Shown: positions 3,283-50,319 of the stretch, piece after piece | How positions within the stretch are numbered: position 1 is the first letter of the stretch | How the letters are laid out: each line of letters starts with the position of its first letter | From: Octopus vulgaris | Taxonomy: Eukaryota | Direction: 5' to 3' | Assembly (NCBI GenBank): GCA_951406725.2 | Contig: OX597826.1 | Span: 1,488,001-1,552,000 of the forward strand | Length of the DNA: 64,000 nucleotides | Notes under the pieces: model-generated | Told to the model about the DNA's origin: nothing | The model's input: only the letters and a program-made list of their open reading frames with translations | The model's database searches: none | Program-made: the position numbers and the translations under genes

Positions 3283-3569
3283 CACACATATTATATATAT
3301 ACATGTATGTATATTGTTTATGTGTTTAAAAGCTAGCCTTGAGGCCTTTTCTCCCTCCATTTTGAAGACAGGTTATAAGCCACTGACCATTAGGGTCTGA
3401 TGAGACATTTGTAAATCTAAGCACTTTAAGGACTTAAAATCCTGGGTCACCCCATGAACTGGCCATAACTATCTTTGTCTAAATACTCAACAGCTCTATA
3501 ACTTAGAGGGTTTCTCTTTCAGATTCCTGATTTACTGAAGATATATATATATATATACAATATATATAT

Positions 3570-3936
3570 TCTTTTATCTTTTTATTTGTTTGTCATTTGA
3601 CTGTGGCCATGCTGGAGCTCTGCCTTGAAGGGTTTTAGTCGAACAAATCGAATGCAGGTCTTATTTATTAAAGCCTAGTACTTATTCTATCGGTCTCTTT
3701 TTGCTAAACCACTAAGTTACAGGGATGTAAGCACACCAACACTGGTTGTCAAGCAGTGATAGGAGGACAAACACAGATACACATACACATATATATATAT
3801 ATATATGACAGGCTTCTTTCAGTTTCCATCTACCTAATCCACTCATAAGGCTTTGGTCAGCCTGAGGCTATAGAAGACACTTAAACCTGGAACCTTGTGG
3901 TTGGGAAGCAAGTCTCTTACCCCACAGCCATGTCTG
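3570..3936 (-). mobile_element. SINE family A
   Basis: Collinear with 8041-8440 in reverse. Confidence 0.85.
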
Positions 3937-3948
3937 TATGTATGTATA

Positions 3949-3986
<38 letters not shown>

Positions 3987-6023
3987 GGTAAGAATAAAAC
4001 ACTTGATGATTTCTGTGACCACATATCAAATTACCCATATCAACATATGCACAAACAAAAACACAAACCAAACTTCAGCAAAAAAGAATGGGCTGAGTTG
4101 AACAAATTAAAACTAGATAAAACAATAACAATCAAAGAGGCCGATAAAGGGAGTGCTGTTGTCTTAATGGATACGACATTTTACATAACTTTGGTACTTT
4201 CTATGCTGGAAGACACAACATACTATGAAAAGGCACAAAACTACAGTCAACAAAAAATAATGAGGGAACTAAAATCCATATTAAACCCATACAAAGCAGG
4301 GCTCACCGACAAAGAATATGATTATATGACCAATTTCACAAGTAAAACTAGCCAATTCTACGGTATACCTAAGATCCACAAAAGTGAAAAAATAAGCAAC
4401 GCATGCAAGATAGCTACAGACAAAATAATTAAAGTCCCTAATCCTAATGACCTCAAATTGAGACCCATAATAGCAGGTCCCGCATGCGAAACCCACCGCC
4501 TCAGTAACTTTTTAGACACCCTGTTAAAACCACTCCTCAAACATGTCAAAAGCTATATAAGGGACGACTTAGATATGCTCAATCACCTACCGAATACTAT
4601 AAACAAAAACACCATACTGGTATCCTTCGATGTAGTCAACCTCTACTCCAATATCCCCCACAACCTAGGACTAGAGGCAATCCAATTCTGGCTAGAGAAT
4701 CACGCCAACGAACTACCACACCGCATCAAAAAAGAATTTGTGATAGAAGGGGTTAAATTCATCCTGGAAAATAACTTCTTCGCCTTCAATGACAACTTCT
4801 ACCGACAAAAATCGGGGACTGCGATGGGTACACGAATGGCCCCCTCCTTTGCCAACCTAGTCATAGGATACCTAGAGATCAGTCTGTATCGTAAGGTTCT
4901 AGAAAGATATGGCAGCCCTTTCTCCATCTACATAGAAAACAACTGGAAGAGATATCTAGATGACTGTTTCATCCTTTGGCATAAAAATATAGAAAAACTC
5001 ATAGAATTCCAGAAAATTTTAAACGGACTGGACGTAAACATCCAATTCACGATGGAATATAGCCAACAACAACTCCCCTTCCTCGATATCCTCATTAAGA
5101 AAGCTAATAATATAATAGAAACAGACATATACTATAAGCCTACAGACTCTAAGCAATATCTTCCATTCAATTCATGCCACCCCAGACACACCAGGATGAA
5201 TATCCCCTTCAATCTAGCAAAAAGGATATGCACTATAGTCTCTAACGCAAACACCAGAGACACACGACTACAAGAACTAAAAGATACCCTAATCACCAGG
5301 AACTATCCACCTTCACTTATTGACAAGTGCATTCAACGTGCCCTTCAACTTAACATCAAGGAACTGAGACATCCCAAATCAAAGAAAAACTTACAACCAA
5401 AAGCCTTACCATACATCTCCACACACAACCCTCTCAATAACGAAGCCTTCGACACCATCCTCCACAACATACCCCTCCTAAAAAAAGACCACAGAATGAA
5501 CACAATCCTCCAAACACACACGATCATAAAAAGCAAAAGACAGCCTAGATCCATGAAAAGTCTCCTTACACAAGCCCGAATTCACTCTTCAACACAGAAG
5601 CCGACAGTAAAAAAATGTGGAAGACCCAATTGCGGGATATGCGACTATCTAATCGAGGGTTCGGAGTTCTCCTTCAAACAGGGACAACGGTTTACAGTGA
5701 AAAGCAACTTCACATGTGCTTCGGAGAACCTAATATACTCACTAACCTGCTCCGGGTGTCAAGAGCAGTACATAGGCCAAACAAAAAATGGTTTGCGTAA
5801 ACGAATGGCCCTGCACAGATCCCAGATAAAAATTCCCCAAAACAGAAAAATAGCTTTTAGCCAACACATAGATACTTGCGCCAACAAAAAAACACCAAAC
5901 TTCAGAATTTTCCCCCTCTACCAATTTAGGGACGATACAACCTCGAGACAAAGAATAAGTAAAGAAAATCTCTTTATTACAAAATACAAGCCACTTCTTA
6001 ACGGGTCTACGACAAACAATTAA
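3987..6023 (+). CDS. Penelope-like element polyprotein (5'-truncated): reverse transcriptase + Cys-rich linker + GIY-YIG endonuclease, Neptune-like
   Basis: About 678 uninterrupted codons. PLE motifs: IKEADKGSAVV, FYGIPKIHK, LRPII, VSFDVVNLYSNIP, GTAMGTRMAPSFANL, RYLDDCF (4953-4964), LPFLDI, YYKPT, SCHP. These are followed by CGRPNCGIC and NLIYSLTCSGCQEQYIGQT (GIY-YIG). The ORF-track start at 3897 is read-through from a SINE and (TA)n; homology begins at 3987. Confidence 0.95.
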   Translation, partial: GKNKTLDDFCDHISNYPYQHMHKQKHKPNFSKKEWAELNKLKLDKTITIKEADKGSAVVLMDTTFYITLVLSMLEDTTYYEKAQNYSQQKIMRELKSILNPYKAGLTDKEYDYMTNFTSKTSQFYGIPKIHKSEKISNACKIATDKIIKVPNPNDLKLRPIIAGPACETHRLSNFLDTLLKPLLKHVKSYIRDDLDMLNHLPNTINKNTILVSFDVVNLYSNIPHNLGLEAIQFWLENHANELPHRIKKEFVIEGVKFILENNFFAFNDNFYRQKSGTAMGTRMAPSFANLVIGYLEISLYRKVLERYGSPFSIYIENNWKRYLDDCFILWHKNIEKLIEFQKILNGLDVNIQFTMEYSQQQLPFLDILIKKANNIIETDIYYKPTDSKQYLPFNSCHPRHTRMNIPFNLAKRICTIVSNANTRDTRLQELKDTLITRNYPPSLIDKCIQRALQLNIKELRHPKSKKNLQPKALPYISTHNPLNNEAFDTILHNIPLLKKDHRMNTILQTHTIIKSKRQPRSMKSLLTQARIHSSTQKPTVKKCGRPNCGICDYLIEGSEFSFKQGQRFTVKSNFTCASENLIYSLTCSGCQEQYIGQTKNGLRKRMALHRSQIKIPQNRKIAFSQHIDTCANKKTPNFRIFPLYQFRDDTTSRQRISKENLFITKYKPLLNGSTTNN

Positions 6024-6149
6024 TATACCTCAACTTTAGAATAAAAGAAAAAAATATATATACACACACAAATACTACACTCCATAGAATCCATTACTAA
6101 TCAGCCCCTTCATAGCTATATTTACACCCATTCATATTCTCCCTTCTCT

Positions 6150-6355
6150 GTTTTTTTCTTCTTCTTCTTCTTCATCATCATCGTTATCATCATCATCGGC
6201 GTCATCATCATCACCACCATCTTCTCCTTCTCCTTCTTCTTCTTCTTCTTCTTCTTCTTCTTCTTCATCGTTATCATCATCATCGTCGTCATAATCATCA
6301 CCACCATCACCATCATCTTCTCCTTCTCCTTCTTCTTCTTCTTCTTCTTCTCCAC
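6150..6355 (+). repeat. Duplicated compound (TTC)n/(ATC)n/(ACC)n microsatellite block inside the PLE 3' UTR
   Basis: Two similar blocks of ttc-run / catcgttatcatcatcatcg / atcaccaccatc / ttctccttctccttc. Confidence 0.85.
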
Positions 6356-6682
6356 CCCCTACCCCTTAAGTTTGTCACTAATGTTTTTTAGTATAACACC
6401 TACGCTAATTCTATAAACAATCCTGAATTGAACTGAGACTGCCAGCCGCCACTGACCATTCAAAATACGACCATCAGGGCACTCCCAGATTCTCCCACCC
6501 CCTTTCCTCACCAGCCTTCCCTCTACTACCCTACCAAGAACTCACAACTACCTCGAACACACAAGTGCAAACAAGGGAGTCAGAGAAAGGCAGAATGCCA
6601 CTTAAATCTGAACACTACTATAGAAATATTCTTTTAAAAAACTTTTCTTCTAATTTTTCTAAATTTAATTATTTAATCGTTA

Positions 6683-6720
6683 CAGTTGAAAAGGTCTCAA
6701 AATGACCGAAACCGGTACTG
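6683..6720 (+). ncRNA. Minimal type I hammerhead ribozyme in the PLE 3' end (U3-A8 core variant)
   Basis: CAG-TTGAAAA-GGTC-tcaaaat-GACC-GAAA-CCGG-TA-CTG: stem I CAG/CTG, stem II GGTC/GACC, palindromic minimal helix III (ACCGGT), UA cleavage site. Confidence 0.75.
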
Positions 6721-6797
6721 AAATGTTCACTATAAAATTATTTTAGCATTTTCTATTTTTTACTTGTTTTTTCATATATATATATATATATACATAT

Positions 6798-22105: not shown

Positions 22106-22230
22106 TAGAAGAAATGAGGTACTCAGAAGATCGGATGGTTTATATTTACAGATATTTATTTGTATATTACATTTTTTATATATATATATATCATATCACT
22201 TAGATCATCAGCGCTTTCTCCCATTCTAGT

Positions 22231-22730
22231 TGAGTTGCATAGATAGTCTTTCTCCTTATCTGTAAAGGAGTCCTGGTATTCATTGACTAAAGTTCTAATT
22301 TTTGTTATTGTTGCTTTCTCCGGTGGTGTTGGTTCCTCTTTATACTATGTCTGCTTGTTCAGCAACTCCAGTATCTTTTCTTTGTAGTAATCTGTGTCCA
22401 TAATTCCTATTGCTCCACCTTTGTCAGCTTCTTTTGTAATGATTGATTTGTCATTTTTCAGTTTTTGTAAGGTTTGTTTTTCTCCTCTGCGGAGATTCTG
22501 TTTGCATTTGTGTGTGTTGAGAGGGAATTTGGATATTGTCTCTATGTATGCGTCAAGGTGTTTGTCACTTCCCTTGTAAGGGGTGAAATGGGATTTTTTT
22601 CTTATGATTGAGTTATCTTCTGTTTCTTTATATTCAAAGAATTCCATAAGGCGGAGGTGGCGGCTGAGGTTGTCTATATCAGTTTTTAGTTCTATGAGGT
22701 TTGGAGTGGGTGTAGGTGTAAATTTGAGGT
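22231..22730 (-). pseudogene. PLE RT N-terminal fragment
   Basis: LKFTPTP...LSRHLRLMEFF...KKSHFTP...LQKLKNDKSIITKEADKGGAIGIMDTDYYKEKILELL. Aligns by eye with the start of the 3987 ORF; in-frame stop at 22345-22347. Confidence 0.88.
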
Positions 22731-23339: not shown

Positions 23340-23882
23340 TACATGGCACTACATGGGTGCTTTTACATGACACAGTATGGGCATACATGGAACCACATGG
23401 GTACTCCTATGTGGCACTACAGGGGCACTTATGTGGCACTGTGTGAGCATTTTTATGTGGCACCATGTAGGTACTTTTATGTGGCACCACATGGGAACTT
23501 TTATGTGACACCATATGGACACTTTTATGTGACACCACATGGGCACTTATGTGGCATCACATGGACACTTTTATGTGACACCACATGGACACTTTTATGT
23601 GACACCACATGGACACTTTTATGTGACACCACATGGACACTTATGTGGAACCACATGGACACTTATGTGGAACCACATGGACACTTTTATGTGGCACCAC
23701 ATGGGCACTTATGTGGCACCACATGGGAACTTTTATGTGGCACCACATGGGCACTTATGTGGCACCACATGGGAACTTTTATGTGGCACCATATGGACAC
23801 TTTTATGTGGCACCACATGGGCACTTATGTGACACCACATGGGCACTTATGTGGAACCACATGGACACTTTTATGTGGCACT
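23340..23882. repeat. Minisatellite of 22/24-bp units with palindromic core ATGTGGCACCACAT, inside a family B retroposon (23165-24095)
   Basis: About 23 units of gggcacttatgtggcaccacat / ggacacttttatgtgacaccacat. Confidence 0.95.
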
Positions 23883-25033: not shown

Positions 25034-27013
25034 AAATTCCTGTGACTGCATTTGTGTGCATGTATATATTGTGTGTGAATGTATATATATATATTCCCAC
25101 CCATGCTAGCATGAAAGACGGATGTTAAATGACGACGATGATGGTGGTGTATGTGTTTGTATGTGTGTGTGTATATACTATATGCTTGTGTATGCACATA
25201 CATACACACACACACGTTCCCATGGAAGTCTAAGTATGGTGAGTCATATATAATTTATGAAATATCAATCAAAATATACAGTCACATAAAAGGAACATAT
25301 TTCAACACAATCATTATTCATTAGTCTGTTTTGAATCTTTTCAAAATACATTTCAAAATGAAGTCTGACATTTTCAATTATCATTATTATCATTATTATT
25401 ATCATCATCATCATCATCGTCTTTATTATTATTACTATCATTATTATGCAAAAAATAATGTTATTGATTTCTTACATAAACACAAAAGCATCAGTTTTGG
25501 AAAGGAATGGGGAAGCGGTATTTAAGTGTGTTTACTTTTGTAGTTTTCAGGTATTTTGTTTGATGATGGTGAACTTTCCCCCCCAGCAGTGAATTGATGA
25601 CAGTGGACTCACTGGACACAGAATCTCCCCGAGAAGGCTACATTAAGGCTACACATGTCTGTGGAATACTCAGCCACTTGCATGTATCAAACTCATGACC
25701 TGATAATCCTGAGCCAAATACTCTAAATGCTAAGCTACACACCCTCCAAAAAAGAAAAATAACAGCAGACACACAAACATGATTTCGAGCATGTTTCTAT
25801 CACATTGCTTGCTAAGAGACGACCCTGATTACGCCACACCATGCTTGCCACTCTCTGTCTCTCAAATTTGGGAGGAATTTAAATCTATTTTCCTCTTCTT
25901 ATTTTCATTTTTATCTTGTTTTTCAATAATGCTATTTTTATCACCACATGATAATTGGTCAGTTAGTATGCTTAATAGGATAGGTTATATAACCACATAT
26001 CTAAATAAATAGGTTTGTTGTAAATTTGTTTTGGATTATTACATTGAAGAAAACACTTCTGGGGATCAATTTGATCAACTAACTCTTTCAAGACGTTACC
26101 CCAATAAAATTGTAAAAGAATATATTCTGTCCAAGCTGAAGTTTTCTATTTCTTGGGTGTTCTTCAGAGCAAATGTGCAGCAGAGGGGAAACTTGATGTG
26201 ATGGAGTGAGGATTTGGCTTTGAATGAATGAACTCTAATACATGTATTGAGTAGTTTTTCTCTCAATTTGACATCCAAAGGTATATATTTGTATATATGT
26301 ACAGGAATTGCTGGATGGTTAAGAAGTTCACTCTGCAAACCACAAGTTTTCTGGTTCAGTTCCACTGTGTGCCACTTTGAGCAAATGTTTATTACTACAT
26401 ATCTTTTCAGCCAGTCTTGGAGGACCTATAATGGTCATAATAATAACTATGAACTTTTCATGCCACGCCTCTTCTTCCTGACAGTGATACCCTAATCCCA
26501 CCAAAAAATATTGATTGGAATAAGCTAAGAGTGATAATTAGGGAACTTGTAGTCTCTCTAGTCTAACACAAGTTAAAATAAATATTTGTCCTGAGCAAGA
26601 CATGAAACTGTAATTAGTGGTTTAGGCTCCAGCTTGAGAATTCAGTAGTTTTAGGGACTATTGAGCCACTTCTTAGTCACTACTATTCTCATGTTCACTC
26701 TGGCACAAGGTGGTAGTACTAATTGTAGGTGCCATTTACAAATCAGAAAGCAGAAGATAGTCCTATAGCTAAGGCTTATACAAAACTTGGAGGGGGGGGG
26801 CTGGTCCAGGCCTACTAATATGTGGAAATGCCTTGACATCATGTGAACAGGTCCTTCTGCTTAAGTGTTAAATAGTCCTTGCGCCTAAAGGGTAAGCTCA
26901 AGAAAGCAGAAAACTAGCAGAGTAAACGGTAAATAAAGTAAGCAGTAATATTTATTTCCACTTAAAATGTAGATGTGCTGTTAGAAAAAAAACTATCTCT
27001 AGCAGTTGAGCAT

Positions 27014-27073
27014 ACAGCACTGATGAGACCAAGGAAGGTTGAAATCACATGATCTGGTGGTCTCAGTATTGGA
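27014..27073 (+). ncRNA. Hammerhead-like motif, retrozyme unit 1
   Basis: CTGATGA (27020-27026)-GACC-aaggaa-GGTT-GAAA-TCAC-atgatctg-GTGG-TC. Confidence 0.65.
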
Positions 27074-27256
27074 GTTTGTGGGGAGTAATCTCCCTACTAA
27101 TGGTATAAACAAGTGTGCGTTTTGCACCAAAAGCCTATATGAGAATTTTTCTGATGGTAAAAGGAAGCTCACTAGCTAACTGTAACACCAGTAGCTTGTT
27201 CAGGCACTAATTGCTAGTGGGGAGATGGGTCACTGCTATCTCTAGTGGCTGAGCAT

Positions 27257-27316
27257 CCATCATCGATGAGTCTAACGAAGGTCAAAACCACATGATCTGG
27301 TGGTCTCAGAGCTGGA
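27257..27316 (+). ncRNA. Hammerhead-like motif, retrozyme unit 2 (core mutated)
   Basis: TCGATGA (27263-27269)-GTCT-aacgaa-GGTC-AAAA-CCAC-atgatctg-GTGG-TC. Confidence 0.5.
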
Positions 27317-28117
27317 GTTGGTAGGGAGTAGTTTTCCTGCTAGCAAATATAAACAAATGTGCATTTGACACCTAAAGCCAATATGAGAGTTTCTCTCATG
27401 GTAAAAGAATCTACAACAGTAAATAATCTCGTAGAAAGCAGCAGGAAACAATTGCTGCACGTTTCTGAAGAAAAATCATGCATCTTCAGAGTTTGGTGTG
27501 AGAGTTCATGATCACAGTTGTCTGTAGGCAAGTCACATGAAAGAGATTAATAAATATCCTTGTTATTTGCCAAATGTCTGCCCTGTGCTTTGTATTAGAT
27601 AATAATAACAAAACTCATCTGCTCTGTGCTAAATTCATTACCCATTTCAAAATGATTTTGCTAACAAATGATTTGGGGAGGGTTGGGGTTAAAAACAAAA
27701 AATAAAAAACGGTTTGTGTGTCAAAACAGAACAATTATTTTAGCTTTTTATTTGGTCAATTACTAAATAAAACACAGGAAAGATAATTATCAATTAACTC
27801 ATGTAAAATGGAACAAAAATATATATTTGTGTCAATGTTTGACTTCTACGTTCTATTAAAACAAAAAAAAGCAACATAGACAATGTTTCTTGAACAAACT
27901 GTCTGTACACACACACACACACACACACATTTAGCAAGTAAATAACAGAGTCAGATGATAACTGATGATAACTGATGGTGGTGGTGGTGGTGGTGTCAAC
28001 AAAAATGGCAGAATTCTGAATAAGTTTGTGTGACTTAGGTGAGGAGAGAAAGAATCTGACAATGCAGGACTGGCTCTGATTATGAGAAAAGAAATTCTTC
28101 AACAGAGGGGTTGGATA

Positions 28118-47509: not shown

Positions 47510-48992
47510 AAAGCACAACATGAGCAATTTTAGAGGAATGGGGTTAGATGATAGCATCGACCCCAGTACTTTACTAGTACTTTATTTTAATGACCCTGGA
47601 TTGATGAAAGGAAAATTCACTCTTAGCAAGATTTGAACTCAGAACATAAGGAACAAGAAATATTGTTTTTAATTTAGGCAAAAACCCCCAGCAATTTTAG
47701 GGTTTAGGGGTTTAACCAATGCCATTAGCCCCAGTCCTTGTTTGAACTTTATTTTATGAACTCTAAAAGAATGGACAGCAAAGTTACCTTAGGCGAGATT
47801 TGGACTCAGAAAGTAAAGAACCAGAACAAATGTTTCTAATTTATGTATAAAGATCCTTCCCAAGTCATACAAACTCAAGGGCCCGTTTCCTGGTTTTCAG
47901 AGAGCAAATATTTACCCCTCGACAGGACACCAGTCCATCACAGGCTTCCTAATTTTCGATGGTCTTGTGTTAAAAGTAGAAATCATTATGACATTATTCT
48001 GTTGTATCTTGGGAGATTCATTATGCCAATAATAAACACACACACTGGTTGTATTTCACTTTTTTTATTATCATTAGTCAAGTGGTTAAACATTTAGACA
48101 ACTAATTAATCAATTGTTTGATTAATCTTTCAGACAGTTAATCAGTTAGGTCTGCTGAAGCCCTTTCATCAGTATTTGAAAGCTCATCAATGACATGCCC
48201 TCAAAGCAGGCCTGGAGAGAGAGAGCACATCATTGTTGAGGTTGCGAATGGTGAAGAAAACGACTTTGATTAATCATCCAGTCAATCAGTCAGCTCGGTT
48301 CATCAAGCAATCAATTAGTTAACTGGCGAAATTTGGGGTGGGGTGGGGTCTAGTTGATTACATGAACCCCACTATGCAACTGGTACTTAATTTATCGACC
48401 TTGAAAGAATGAAAAGCAAAGTTGACTTTGGCAGAATTTGAACCCAGGACGTGGTGACGGGCGAAATACCGTTAAGCATTTGGTCCAGAATGCTAATGAT
48501 TCTGTAAGTTCACCATCTTAATAACAACAACAATACTAACAATAATAATAGTTTCAAATTTTGCCACAAGAGCAACAATTTAGGGGAGAGGATGAGTCGA
48601 ATACATCAACCCCAGTGTTCAACTTGTTCTTATTTTATCAACCCCAAAAGGGTGAAAAGTAAAGTTGACCTCGGCAGAATTTGAACACAGAGTGAAGCAA
48701 TCAGCAAAATACCACTAAGCATTTTTTTGTCCAGTGCACTAATGATTCTACCAGCTCGCCACCCTAATAATAAAAATTATTTCAAATTCTTCCCACAAGG
48801 GCAGCTTGGAAGAGATAGAGATGAGTCGATTGCATCAACCCCAGTATTCAACTGGTACTTATTTTATTGACCCAGAAAGGATGAAAGGCAAAGTTGACCT
48901 CAGCAGAATTTGAACTCGGAATGTAGTGATGGGAAAAATACCACTAAGCATTTTGTCCAGTATGCTAACAGTTCTGCCAGCTTACCACCTTA
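47510..48992 (-). mobile_element. Cluster of family C SINEs, partly head-to-tail with (AAT)n spacers
   Basis: Units at about 47510-47655, 47680-47830, 48320-48520, 48550-48765 and 48775-48992. Confidence 0.8.
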
Positions 48993-50319
48993 ATAATAAT
49001 AATAATAATAATGATAATAATAATAATAATAATAATAATTCCACAGATTTGTTTGTCAGTTGATTGACCGTAGCCAGTTGAACATGTCCCTTAGTGGCTG
49101 ACAATTTGTGCAGTTCTGATCAAGAGCAGAAAGAGTTGTGGAACATCATGGCCATGTATTGAGAGGAATTCTTTGGGATTTGAATGATTCACCTCTGGAA
49201 ACATGGGTGTTTCATTCATCGTCTTTAAACAAACCTTATTCAGGAACCTTTTGAGTGGGATGGGCTACTCCCACTGAAGAAAATTCTAACTGGGTCCCAC
49301 AAGCTGTTTATCTTGATATGAAATCACCATGCCATGCACATATGGTTGTGAGGTATGTGCCTGGTGTACCCTTAACAAATGGGAAGTCATGATGGATATA
49401 TTGGGCTTTGTATATTTGTACCCGAGTGCCACTTTGATGGCATGCACTGTTCTCTCACTCAATAATAAAAGAAGTGAAATAGAATCAGTGTTTGTGTTTA
49501 TTGTTGGCATAATGACCCTCCTGAAACACACCACAGGATTCAACATAAGCAAAACATAGACCCTTATGTATTTGTGTTGTAGTGATAGGGGAAAATTGCT
49601 AAATGCGCAAGGAATCTACAAGTTTTTAGTGACTAAAATAAGGATTTTTCTAAGGCATGGCTATGTGGTAAGAAGCTTGCATCCTAATCACATGGTTCTG
49701 GGTTCAGTTTCACTGTCACACCTTGGGCAAGTGTTTTCTACTGTAGCTTTGGGCTGACCAAAGCCTTGTGAGTGGATTTGGTGGTTGGAAACTGAAAAAC
49801 AGTCATATATATATATATATATATATGCATATATATATGTGTGTGTGTGTGTTTTTGTATCTGTGTTTTTCCCACTCTACATCAATGGGACGATGTGTTG
49901 CAAGTTATGCATAGCTGAACGCACGAGAATCCTTGCATGAACCAAGGAACATCCTTAACTCTGGATGGAGATGTTCAGGCCATGTTTACATTTTAGGAGG
50001 TTCCTGCTAACCTTCTGGAACCCACAAGATGCTGGTACAGCCGGAAGTCAAGAGCCATTAGCAAAGGGAGATAATCCCCAATTGATATCTTTGAGTGAGG
50101 CATTTACCTCTTTGTATTTTCAAGAGGTCATGGGCCAACAAGTTTTTGGGATCTGATGATATGCCATAAAGCCAAACCTGTTATGAATAGAAAACCTAAG
50201 GTGATCCCGAAAACCAGCCTCCCCCATTTTTAATATATGCTGCTCTACATCTTAGAGTGTTCTGCTTCTTTCAGATTCATGTTTCTTACAATATATATAT
50301 TAATATATAAGAAACCGGC

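What the first reader, a model, noticed from the sequence alone, without database searches (positions are those of the whole stretch)
26993..27410. Tandem 243-bp hammerhead-carrying repeat: candidate cephalopod non-LTR retrozyme / circular RNA element
Seen: two diverged direct repeats with 243-bp period and no credible ORF. Each has a hammerhead-like junction, with two-copy consensus TCCAGCA-CTGATGA-GACC-aacgaa-GGTC-GAAA-CCAC-atgatctg-GTGG-TC. The rest of the unit is a chain of hairpins: GTGGGGAG-taat-CTCCCTAC, GTGC-gtttt-GCAC, ATGAGAG-ttt-CTCTCAT, CTCACTAGC...GCTAGTGGG, and AGATGG-gtcactg-CTATCT across the unit junction. Unlike the minimal PLE hammerheads in this window, it has a full 4-bp stem III. 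Established: metazoan non-LTR retrozymes are non-coding tandem units of a few hundred bp with one type I HHR per unit; cleavage releases monomers that circularise. Inference: this is a decayed genomic copy of such a family, possibly mobilised by the PLE RT that is abundant here.
Basis: partly seen in the sequence, partly recalled or inferred. Interest (0 to 1): 0.85.

Follow-up and report, generated by a model that had tools for sequence, protein, structure and literature searches.

The report
Fossil hammerhead retrozyme with Penelope footprints
The flagged repeat is a decayed, internally deleted copy of an old, genome-wide 354-base non-coding repeat that carries a hammerhead ribozyme motif, and the way its copies are inserted suggests that Penelope-type retrotransposons likely copied it from a looped or multi-unit RNA, a partnership that has been proposed for such repeats but, in the papers read, not shown from insertion sites.

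Summary
The 243-bp direct repeat is real (79% identity). It is a decayed copy of a dispersed family whose unit is 354 nt. The 243-bp period comes from a local deletion, found at no other locus.

Helix I is CCATCA/TGGTGG, helix III is two pairs with a palindromic loop, and the cut would follow AUC, not GUC. Here unit 2's core is broken.

The family looks old: median 8.6% from consensus, about 10% of CpGs kept.

The copies carry the Penelope-like-element (PLE) insertion signature:
- 3' ends pile at two AT-rich sites about 40 nt apart (95 of 121 segments).
- There are 31 head-to-head inversions and no tail-to-tail ones.
- 15 of 17 inversions with both ends at these sites pair one short end with one long end.
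- 10 of 17 have a target duplication of 10 bp or more (control 3%).

85 of 121 segments cross the cleavage site, so the templates were circles or uncut multimers. Cleavage, circles and the autonomous partner are unshown. Verdict: new member of a known kind.

The parts
26945..26990 (-). Inverted, 5'-truncated arm of the same element (consensus 183-227), head-to-head with unit 1; its 3' end lies at the 'short' end site of the family
   Evidence: blastn 85% over 46 nt, E 1e-7; family end clusters
26993..27159 (+). Unit 1, consensus 1-167 (hammerhead, arm of the long helix, two small hairpins)
   Evidence: 87% to the majority consensus
27014..27060 (+). Hammerhead 1 (type I): core CUGAUGA 27020-27026, helix II GACC/GGTT, GAAA, 2-bp helix III plus A-U, predicted cut after AUC at 27054; helix I damaged (4 of 6 pairs)
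   Evidence: sequence; pair counts; Rfam HH9 14.7 bits, E 1.9, below the gathering score
27160..27164 (+). Deletion junction: consensus 168-273 (106 nt, holding both family 3'-end sites) replaced by 5 nt; main cause of the 243-bp period
   Evidence: pairwise alignment; no other scored genomic match spans it; an X6 contig spans 27034-27700 without a gap
27165..27235 (+). Rest of unit 1, consensus 274-354, with an 11-nt deletion
27236..27421 (+). Unit 2, consensus 1-179, with a 6-nt insertion; ends short of either family 3'-end site
   Evidence: 82% to the majority consensus over 186 columns
27257..27303 (+). Hammerhead 2, broken: UCGAUGA core, CAAA for GAAA, mismatches in helices II and III; homologous cut site 27297
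   Evidence: one contig of run X3 (organism B, depth 8.7) reads CTGATGA here

Best explanation
This is a decayed, internally deleted genomic copy of an old 354-nt non-coding repeat family with one type I hammerhead motif per unit, likely a non-LTR retrozyme that was copied into AT-rich sites by the reverse transcriptase and endonuclease of a Penelope-like element. Inferred life cycle: tandem copies were transcribed. Two hammerheads would pair through the palindromic helix III and cut after AUC, and the 354-nt piece would be ligated into a highly paired circle. A PLE protein would nick both strands of an AT-rich target about 10-14 nt apart. It would start reverse transcription inside the RNA at one of two AT-rich sites (consensus about 227 and about 265) and run on through the cleavage junction for up to about 3 units. 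When both nicks primed, one arm typically started at each site, giving head-to-head insertions with a target duplication and a 'tail' at one end only. Shown: family, unit length, hammerhead anatomy, end clusters, inversions, duplications, decay. Inferred: transcription, cleavage, circularisation, identity of the enzyme.
For: Unit 354 nt, GC 42%, longest stop-free frame 62 aa. The hammerhead anatomy matches the published canonical metazoan type I motif: helix I 6 bp, helix II 4 bp, helix III 1-2 bp with a palindromic loop (PMC4209133). Rfam HH9 aligns in this register at E 7e-5 and 9e-5. The circular consensus folds far better than shuffles: z -9.4 without and -10.4 with CpG restored. 26 of 93 loci hold 1.3 units or more, at most 2.87. 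3' ends: 49 of 121 segments at consensus 218-244, 46 at 258-276, 1 between, 1 at the cut site. 5' ends are spread: 8, 11 and 3 in those bins. In the two hammerhead-anchored samples alone, 53 of 70 segments end in the two clusters (p 1e-28). 31 head-to-head pairs in 30 of 93 loci, 0 tail-to-tail; 15 of 17 with both ends in clusters are short+long (p 0.002). Duplications of 10 bp or more flank 10 of 17 inverted insertions (3.3% of 272 control pairings). These are the described PLE marks (PMC11167929, PMC8557442, PMC3846280). In the sample anchored on the 3' region, 15 of 28 segments cross the cut site and 0 of 28 start at 55-70, so linear cut monomers were not the template.
Against: No cleavage or circle was observed. 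Rfam scores (26 bits at most) are below the HH9 gathering score of 52. In the folded circular consensus the active helices are not dominant: helix I 0.03-0.5, short helix III 0.02 or less. A dimer-type ribozyme would give this, but so would an inactive one. Many copies have U at core position 3 (67 of 98, my tally), of which 14 have G8. The C3-G8 / U3-A8 linkage is partial (p 0.013), and units within one array often differ at position 3. AUC is called essentially absent from natural hammerheads (PMC1636495 abstract). No autonomous partner was found: 0 tblastn hits of the window's PLE protein in 93 loci and no DNA similarity to that PLE. Only 2 of 54 non-inverted insertions show a duplication of 10 bp or more, which is control level. 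No clear duplication flanks the window copy. An uncut multimeric transcript explains the read-through as well as a circle does.
Confidence: 0.75

Rival explanations
1. Non-autonomous PLE derivative copied from uncut multimeric transcripts. The hammerhead is inherited from a pLTR, cuts weakly or not at all, and no circle is involved.
For: Read-through of the cut site (85 of 121 segments) fits uncut RNA. In an anole PLE in vitro, hammerhead mutants did not affect insertion and unprocessed RNA was the dominant substrate (PMC11167929). Majority U3 core and AUC triplet. In the Xenopus study 8 of 9 tested genomic dimers did not cleave.
Against: The motif is the full canonical type, not the minimal PLE type. 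In the predicted fold a long helix of about 45 bp pairs the two ends of the cleavage-defined monomer, as expected of a circle (z about -10). The major subfamily leans to A8 with U3, a known compensatory core.
Confidence: 0.15
2. Solo or tandem pseudo-LTRs of an autonomous Penelope-like element whose ORF-bearing copies were missed.
For: All insertion marks are PLE marks. Retrozyme families resemble pLTRs in Xenopus. Only 93 loci of a family of probably about 1000 were examined.
Against: 45 of 121 segments run through position 268 straight into the next unit. No shared flank other than family sequence and what look like common host repeats was seen (the output was cut). No hit to the window's PLE protein in 93 loci. 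No frame over 62 aa in the unit.
Confidence: 0.07
3. One reading: a 243-nt retrozyme with a stable 4-bp stem III cutting at GUC.
For: The 243-bp period is real at this locus and the alternative helix can pair.
Against: Family period about 354. The junction is unique among 40 scored matches. That register leaves no helix I, and Rfam aligns the other register.
Confidence: 0.03

Closest known systems
Metazoan non-LTR retrozymes (Cervera and de la Pena 2020, PMC7229834), closest the 350-390-bp Mytilus galloprovincialis repeats and axolotl Rtz_353
   Same: Non-coding unit of 150-450 bp, GC under 45%, one canonical type I hammerhead with a 2-bp helix III and tetraloop, tandem copies, strongly paired predicted circle, target duplications longer than 4 bp, PLEs in the same genome.
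   Different: Apparently extinct in this genome. Arrays reach only about 3 units in the sample. AUC cut triplet and a majority U3 core. Expression and cleavage are not shown. No sequence comparison with the mussel family was possible here.
EN+ Penelope-like elements and their pLTRs (PMC11167929, PMC8557442, PMC3846280)
   Same: Two 3'-end classes about 40 nt apart (tail), head-to-head 5'-truncated inversions, tail at one end only, 10-16-bp duplications around inverted insertions (8-10 bp in the rotifer paper), AT-rich targets, hammerhead upstream of the end sites.
   Different: No ORF; units join directly head to tail; the hammerhead is canonical rather than minimal.
Vertebrate non-LTR retrozymes as PLE derivatives (Li, Clavereau and Pollet, bioRxiv 10.64898/2026.07.22.740005)
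   Same: Same proposed dependence on PLEs; monomers and short multimers dispersed over chromosomes.
   Different: That work argues from co-occurrence and pLTR similarity and samples no mollusc. Here the evidence is insertion footprints, and no parent pLTR was found.

Membership tests
Canonical type I hammerhead | Core C3UGANG8A ... GAAA ... UH (or compensated U3-A8) | tested here: met
   Intact in window unit 1. 16 of 100 sampled hammerhead rows keep an intact core and at least 11 of 12 helix pairs. Broken in window unit 2.
Canonical type I hammerhead | Helix I 6 bp, helix II 4 bp, helix III 1-2 bp with a palindromic loop | tested here: met
   13 of 13 pairs in the consensus, 11 of 13 in each window unit; Rfam HH9 alignments.
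Canonical type I hammerhead | Reaches an Rfam gathering score | tested here: not met
   HH9 25.9 and 25.6 bits vs 52 for the two best-kept copies tried, 14.7 for the window. Hammerhead_1 is not listed; clan overlaps are hidden. HH9 is a different family.
Canonical type I hammerhead | Loop 1-loop 2 tertiary contact | not tested
   A bulge in the extended helix I and a 6-nt loop 2 are present; contacts not modelled.
Canonical type I hammerhead | Self-cleavage | not testable with these tools
   Needs an in vitro assay.
Non-LTR retrozyme | Non-coding tandem unit of 150-450 bp, low GC, one hammerhead per unit | tested here: met
   354 nt, GC 42%, no frame over 62 aa, 26 of 93 loci with 1.3 units or more.
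Non-LTR retrozyme | Dispersed multi-copy, with target duplications longer than 4 bp when present | tested here: met
   98 exact pattern matches on 28 contigs. Duplications of 10 bp or more in 10 of 17 inverted and 2 of 54 simple insertions.
Non-LTR retrozyme | Highly self-paired predicted circle | tested here: met
   z -9.4 to -11.7 for consensus variants; the window's 243-nt remnant only z -1.6.
Non-LTR retrozyme | Expressed as monomeric linear and circular RNA | tested here: inconclusive
   Only assembled contigs were available; they cannot show strand, ends or circles.
Autonomous EN+ PLE | RT plus GIY-YIG ORF between pLTRs | tested here: not met
   0 tblastn hits of one PLE protein in 93 loci; units join directly.
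PLE-mobilised sequence | Two 3'-end classes 30-40 nt apart, head-to-head inversions, tail at one end only | tested here: met
   95 of 121 ends, 31 vs 0 inversions, 15 of 17 short+long.

The most novel reading that the evidence does not exclude
This family is a fossil record of a Penelope reverse transcriptase doing target-primed, rolling-circle reverse transcription on a self-cleaved, circularised 354-nt RNA. The two DNA nicks primed at two different internal sites of the RNA, and the ribozyme used a rare AUC site with a core that moved between C3-G8 and U3-A8. It would be the first insertion-site evidence naming PLEs as the mobilisers of animal retrozymes, and the first retrozyme family from a probable cephalopod.
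Probability: 0.4. Interest if true: 0.65.

Novelty: new member of a known kind. Interest (0 to 1): 0.45.

Why it matters
Which enzyme moves animal retrozymes is stated as a hypothesis in PMC7229834 and PMC7761336, and argued from co-occurrence and pLTR similarity in the 2026 preprint. The tail, inversion and duplication pattern gives a simple genome-only test that can be applied to the coral, mussel and axolotl families. The short+long pairing of ends in inverted insertions also bears on how the PLE protein primes the two strands. The locus itself is a dead copy, and no function is indicated.

Tried and rejected
A 243-nt subfamily: rejected; the junction is unique among 40 scored matches.

A-to-I editing imprint in the inserted copies: not seen, A>G 3.3% vs T>C 3.5%.

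An ancestral CCGAUGA core decaying by CpG loss: not supported; only 1 of 9 matches with position 5 other than G is CCAA-type.

A young, CpG-intact subfamily: not seen; 4 exact matches of a 30-mer with three CpGs, 1 match of the full canonical core pattern, lowest divergence 3.2% among 133 rows. A diverged young relative would be missed.

The window's PLE as parent: no similarity.

Coding capacity around the circle: none over 62 aa.

Whole-window Rfam scan: the 150 rows shown of 233 were microsatellite-driven miRNA matches.

Expression: no RNA holder listed. Three runs guessed to be RNA held 34, 148 and 62 family-like contigs, mostly under 95% alike. Contigs cannot show ends, strand or circles, so this is no evidence either way.

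Target duplication around the window copy: none clear.

Earlier findings by sequence and by the first word search: none.

Not-in-print check: searches found no paper describing a cephalopod retrozyme. The library is partial, and Repbase, Dfam and the papers' supplements were not seen.

Full report
OBSERVATION. The two direct repeats are there, 243 bp apart and 79% identical over 171 nt, with no long ORF. The host genome G000 has 2.8 Gb in 227 contigs. That it is an octopus-type cephalopod is my inference from size and repeat content; no call names it.

FAMILY AND UNIT. A search of G000 with the flagged stretch gave 1653 first-look candidates, of which 40 were scored, giving 56 matches; the listed ones are 73-88% identical apart from the window itself. 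I fetched 101 loci in five searches and dropped 8 as duplicates or overlaps (L031, L032, L057, L059, L064, L071, L072, L096), leaving 93. Tandem periods elsewhere are mostly 337-361 bp, one 308. The iterated consensus is 354 nt, GC 42%, with no frame over 62 aa. Against it the window element reads: an inverted arm at 26945-26990 (consensus 183-227), then units covering 1-167, 274-354 and 1-179. A 106-nt stretch replaced by 5 nt, an 11-nt deletion and a 1-nt insertion give 243. No other of 40 scored matches spans that junction. A pattern with 21 fixed letters has 98 exact matches. At about 8.5% divergence that implies some 600 hammerhead-bearing units (a rough inference).

AGE. 21 positions show CpG decay, with 107 of 1038 CpG cells kept in the first 39 loci. 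Median divergence at other sites is 8.6%, minimum 3.2%, over 133 rows. Units in one array differ as much as units from different loci (16.5% vs 17.2%). Only 4 places keep a 30-mer with three CpGs. The insertion is shared with other samples. Two contigs of run X6 cover 26700-26991 and 27034-27700 with 2 and 6 differences. A contig of run X3 (another organism label) covers 27194-27548 with 28 differences and has CTGATGA where the window's unit 2 has TCGATGA (one contig, depth 8.7).

HAMMERHEAD. In the consensus, helix I is CCATCA/TGGTGG and continues after a bulge into a long helix. Helix II is GACC/GGTC. After GAAA comes the palindrome ATCACGTGAT, which gives A-U plus two pairs and a 4-nt loop. 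The triplet before the cut is AUC (window 27052-27054). This is the published canonical metazoan type I design, which works as a dimer when helix III is weak (PMC4209133, first quarter of the text read; PMC7229834, passages and Discussion). The Rfam HH9 model aligns two well-kept copies in this register at E 7e-5 and 9e-5, below its gathering score. Window unit 1 keeps the core, but only 4 of 6 helix I pairs; unit 2's core is broken.

Across copies the helix pairs change mostly by single transitions, double-sided changes being rare, as expected for dead copies; this says nothing for or against the structure. Among the 98 pattern matches (my hand tally), position 3 is U in 67, C in 27 and other in 4. 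U3 goes with A8 in 52 and G8 in 14; C3 goes with A8 in 14 and G8 in 13 (p 0.013). At positions 7-8, CA:TG is 42:4 for U3 and 11:12 for C3. Independent diagnostic sites split a major subfamily (A8 in 30 of 45) from a minor one (G8 in 14 of 17; C3 in 9 of 17). The window copy carries minor-type letters. This suggests a compensatory U3-A8 core in the major lineage, a variant known from Schistosoma PLEs. The split is not clean: units in one array often differ at position 3, and part of the sample was selected for likeness to the window. AUC is called essentially absent from natural hammerheads yet active in vitro (PMC1636495, abstract only).

FOLD. As a circle the consensus folds at -123 (majority) to -145 kcal/mol (CpG restored), z -9.4 and -10.4 against 40 shuffles each. 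A long helix pairs the two ends of the cleavage-defined monomer. The active hammerhead helices are not dominant in that ensemble: helix I 0.03-0.5, helix III 0.02 or less. The window's 243-nt remnant is not better than shuffles (z -1.6).

INSERTION FOOTPRINTS. Of 121 segments of 80 nt or more, 49 end at consensus 218-244, 46 at 258-276, 1 between them and 1 near the cut site; 5' ends are spread. Both end sites are AT-rich. The third sample was selected on the 3' region and favours long ends. The two hammerhead-anchored samples alone give 35 and 18 of 70 (p 1e-28). There are 31 head-to-head pairs in 30 of 93 loci and no tail-to-tail pair. In the 17 pairs with both ends in clusters (bins set after seeing the data: 205-244 and 250-276), 15 are short+long, 2 short+short and none long+long (p 0.002). 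The other 14 pairs have an end elsewhere; the window's own is one of them. Direct duplications of 10-16 bp (at most 1 mismatch, partly overlapping the element's own ends) flank 10 of those 17, against 3.3% of 272 mismatched pairings. They flank only 2 of 54 simple insertions, which is control level. Twenty bases beyond clustered ends are 70% AT vs 62% 200 bases on (95 ends).

These are the marks described for PLEs. Two internal reverse transcription starts give a 30-40-bp tail, with both strands cut and extended and AT-rich targets (PMC11167929, passages). An inverted 5'-truncated copy occurs, with the tail often at one end only (PMC8557442, passages). 8-10-bp duplications flank inverted pLTR insertions (PMC3846280, passages).

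TEMPLATE. A cut linear monomer copied from 227 or 265 would stop at position 63. In the sample chosen without regard to the hammerhead, 15 of 28 segments cross the cut site and none starts at 55-70; overall 85 of 121 cross (most of these were selected for holding the hammerhead). The templates were therefore circles or uncut multimers. The data do not separate the two.

PARTNER. The window has a PLE ORF (3885-6023; RVT_1 E 3e-8, GIY-YIG E 7e-4 just under its cutoff) with its own hammerhead-like motif at 6686, but it shares no DNA similarity with the unit. Its protein hits none of the 93 loci; more distant PLE families could be missed by one query. The mobiliser is inferred from the footprints only.

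COMPARISON AND NOVELTY. It works like, and on all sequence-testable features belongs with, the metazoan non-LTR retrozymes; expression as circles is untested. PLE mobilisation is a hypothesis in PMC7229834 and PMC7761336 (passages). It is argued from co-occurrence and pLTR similarity in bioRxiv 10.64898/2026.07.22.740005 (parts 1-3 of 5 read). In what I read none reports tails or inversions for retrozymes; PMC7229834 notes that duplications, when present, are longer than 4 bp. Searches found no cephalopod retrozyme. Supplements, Repbase and Dfam were not seen and may hold this family.

VERDICT. A new, apparently extinct member of a known kind, with useful footprint evidence on an open point. 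Interest 0.45.

Noticed in passing
window 3885-6780 (+): 5'-truncated Penelope-like element with an open RT + GIY-YIG frame to its stop (712 aa stop to stop, starting in flanking microsatellite). Its 3' region has a hammerhead-like motif at 6686 with a UUGAAAA (U3-A8) core and a palindromic minimal helix III, and it ends in a TA tract.
   Followed up: partly
window 22228-22554 (-): Fragment of a second, diverged PLE-like RT (36% over 112 aa to the 3885 ORF).
   Followed up: no
window about 3370-3420 (+): Another CTGATGA motif after CCACTGACCATTAGGGT, possibly a decayed hammerhead of a different repeat; not picked up by my descriptor.
   Followed up: no
L073-L101, consensus 89-121: 8 of 28 segments anchored on the 3' region have their 5' end at consensus 89-121, where reverse transcription would enter the predicted long helix; possible structure-dependent stalling.
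   Followed up: no
consensus 259-282 (the TCACT part is window 27169-27173): A TATATAT tract followed by TCACT resembles the TATA/Inr pair described in a rotifer pLTR (PMC3846280), with a shorter spacing (12 nt); the long 3'-end site falls on this tract.
   Followed up: no
window 23388-23881: Tandem array of a 24-bp unit, about 21 copies, 84% matches.
   Followed up: no
window 48591-49003: Tandem of a 229-bp unit, 1.8 copies, 80% matches; unrelated to the 354-nt family by blastn.
   Followed up: no
L056 and L057 (G000:C4, about 10 kb apart): Two near-identical loci (over 99% in 300-nt flanks), a local duplication that includes a family copy.
   Followed up: no
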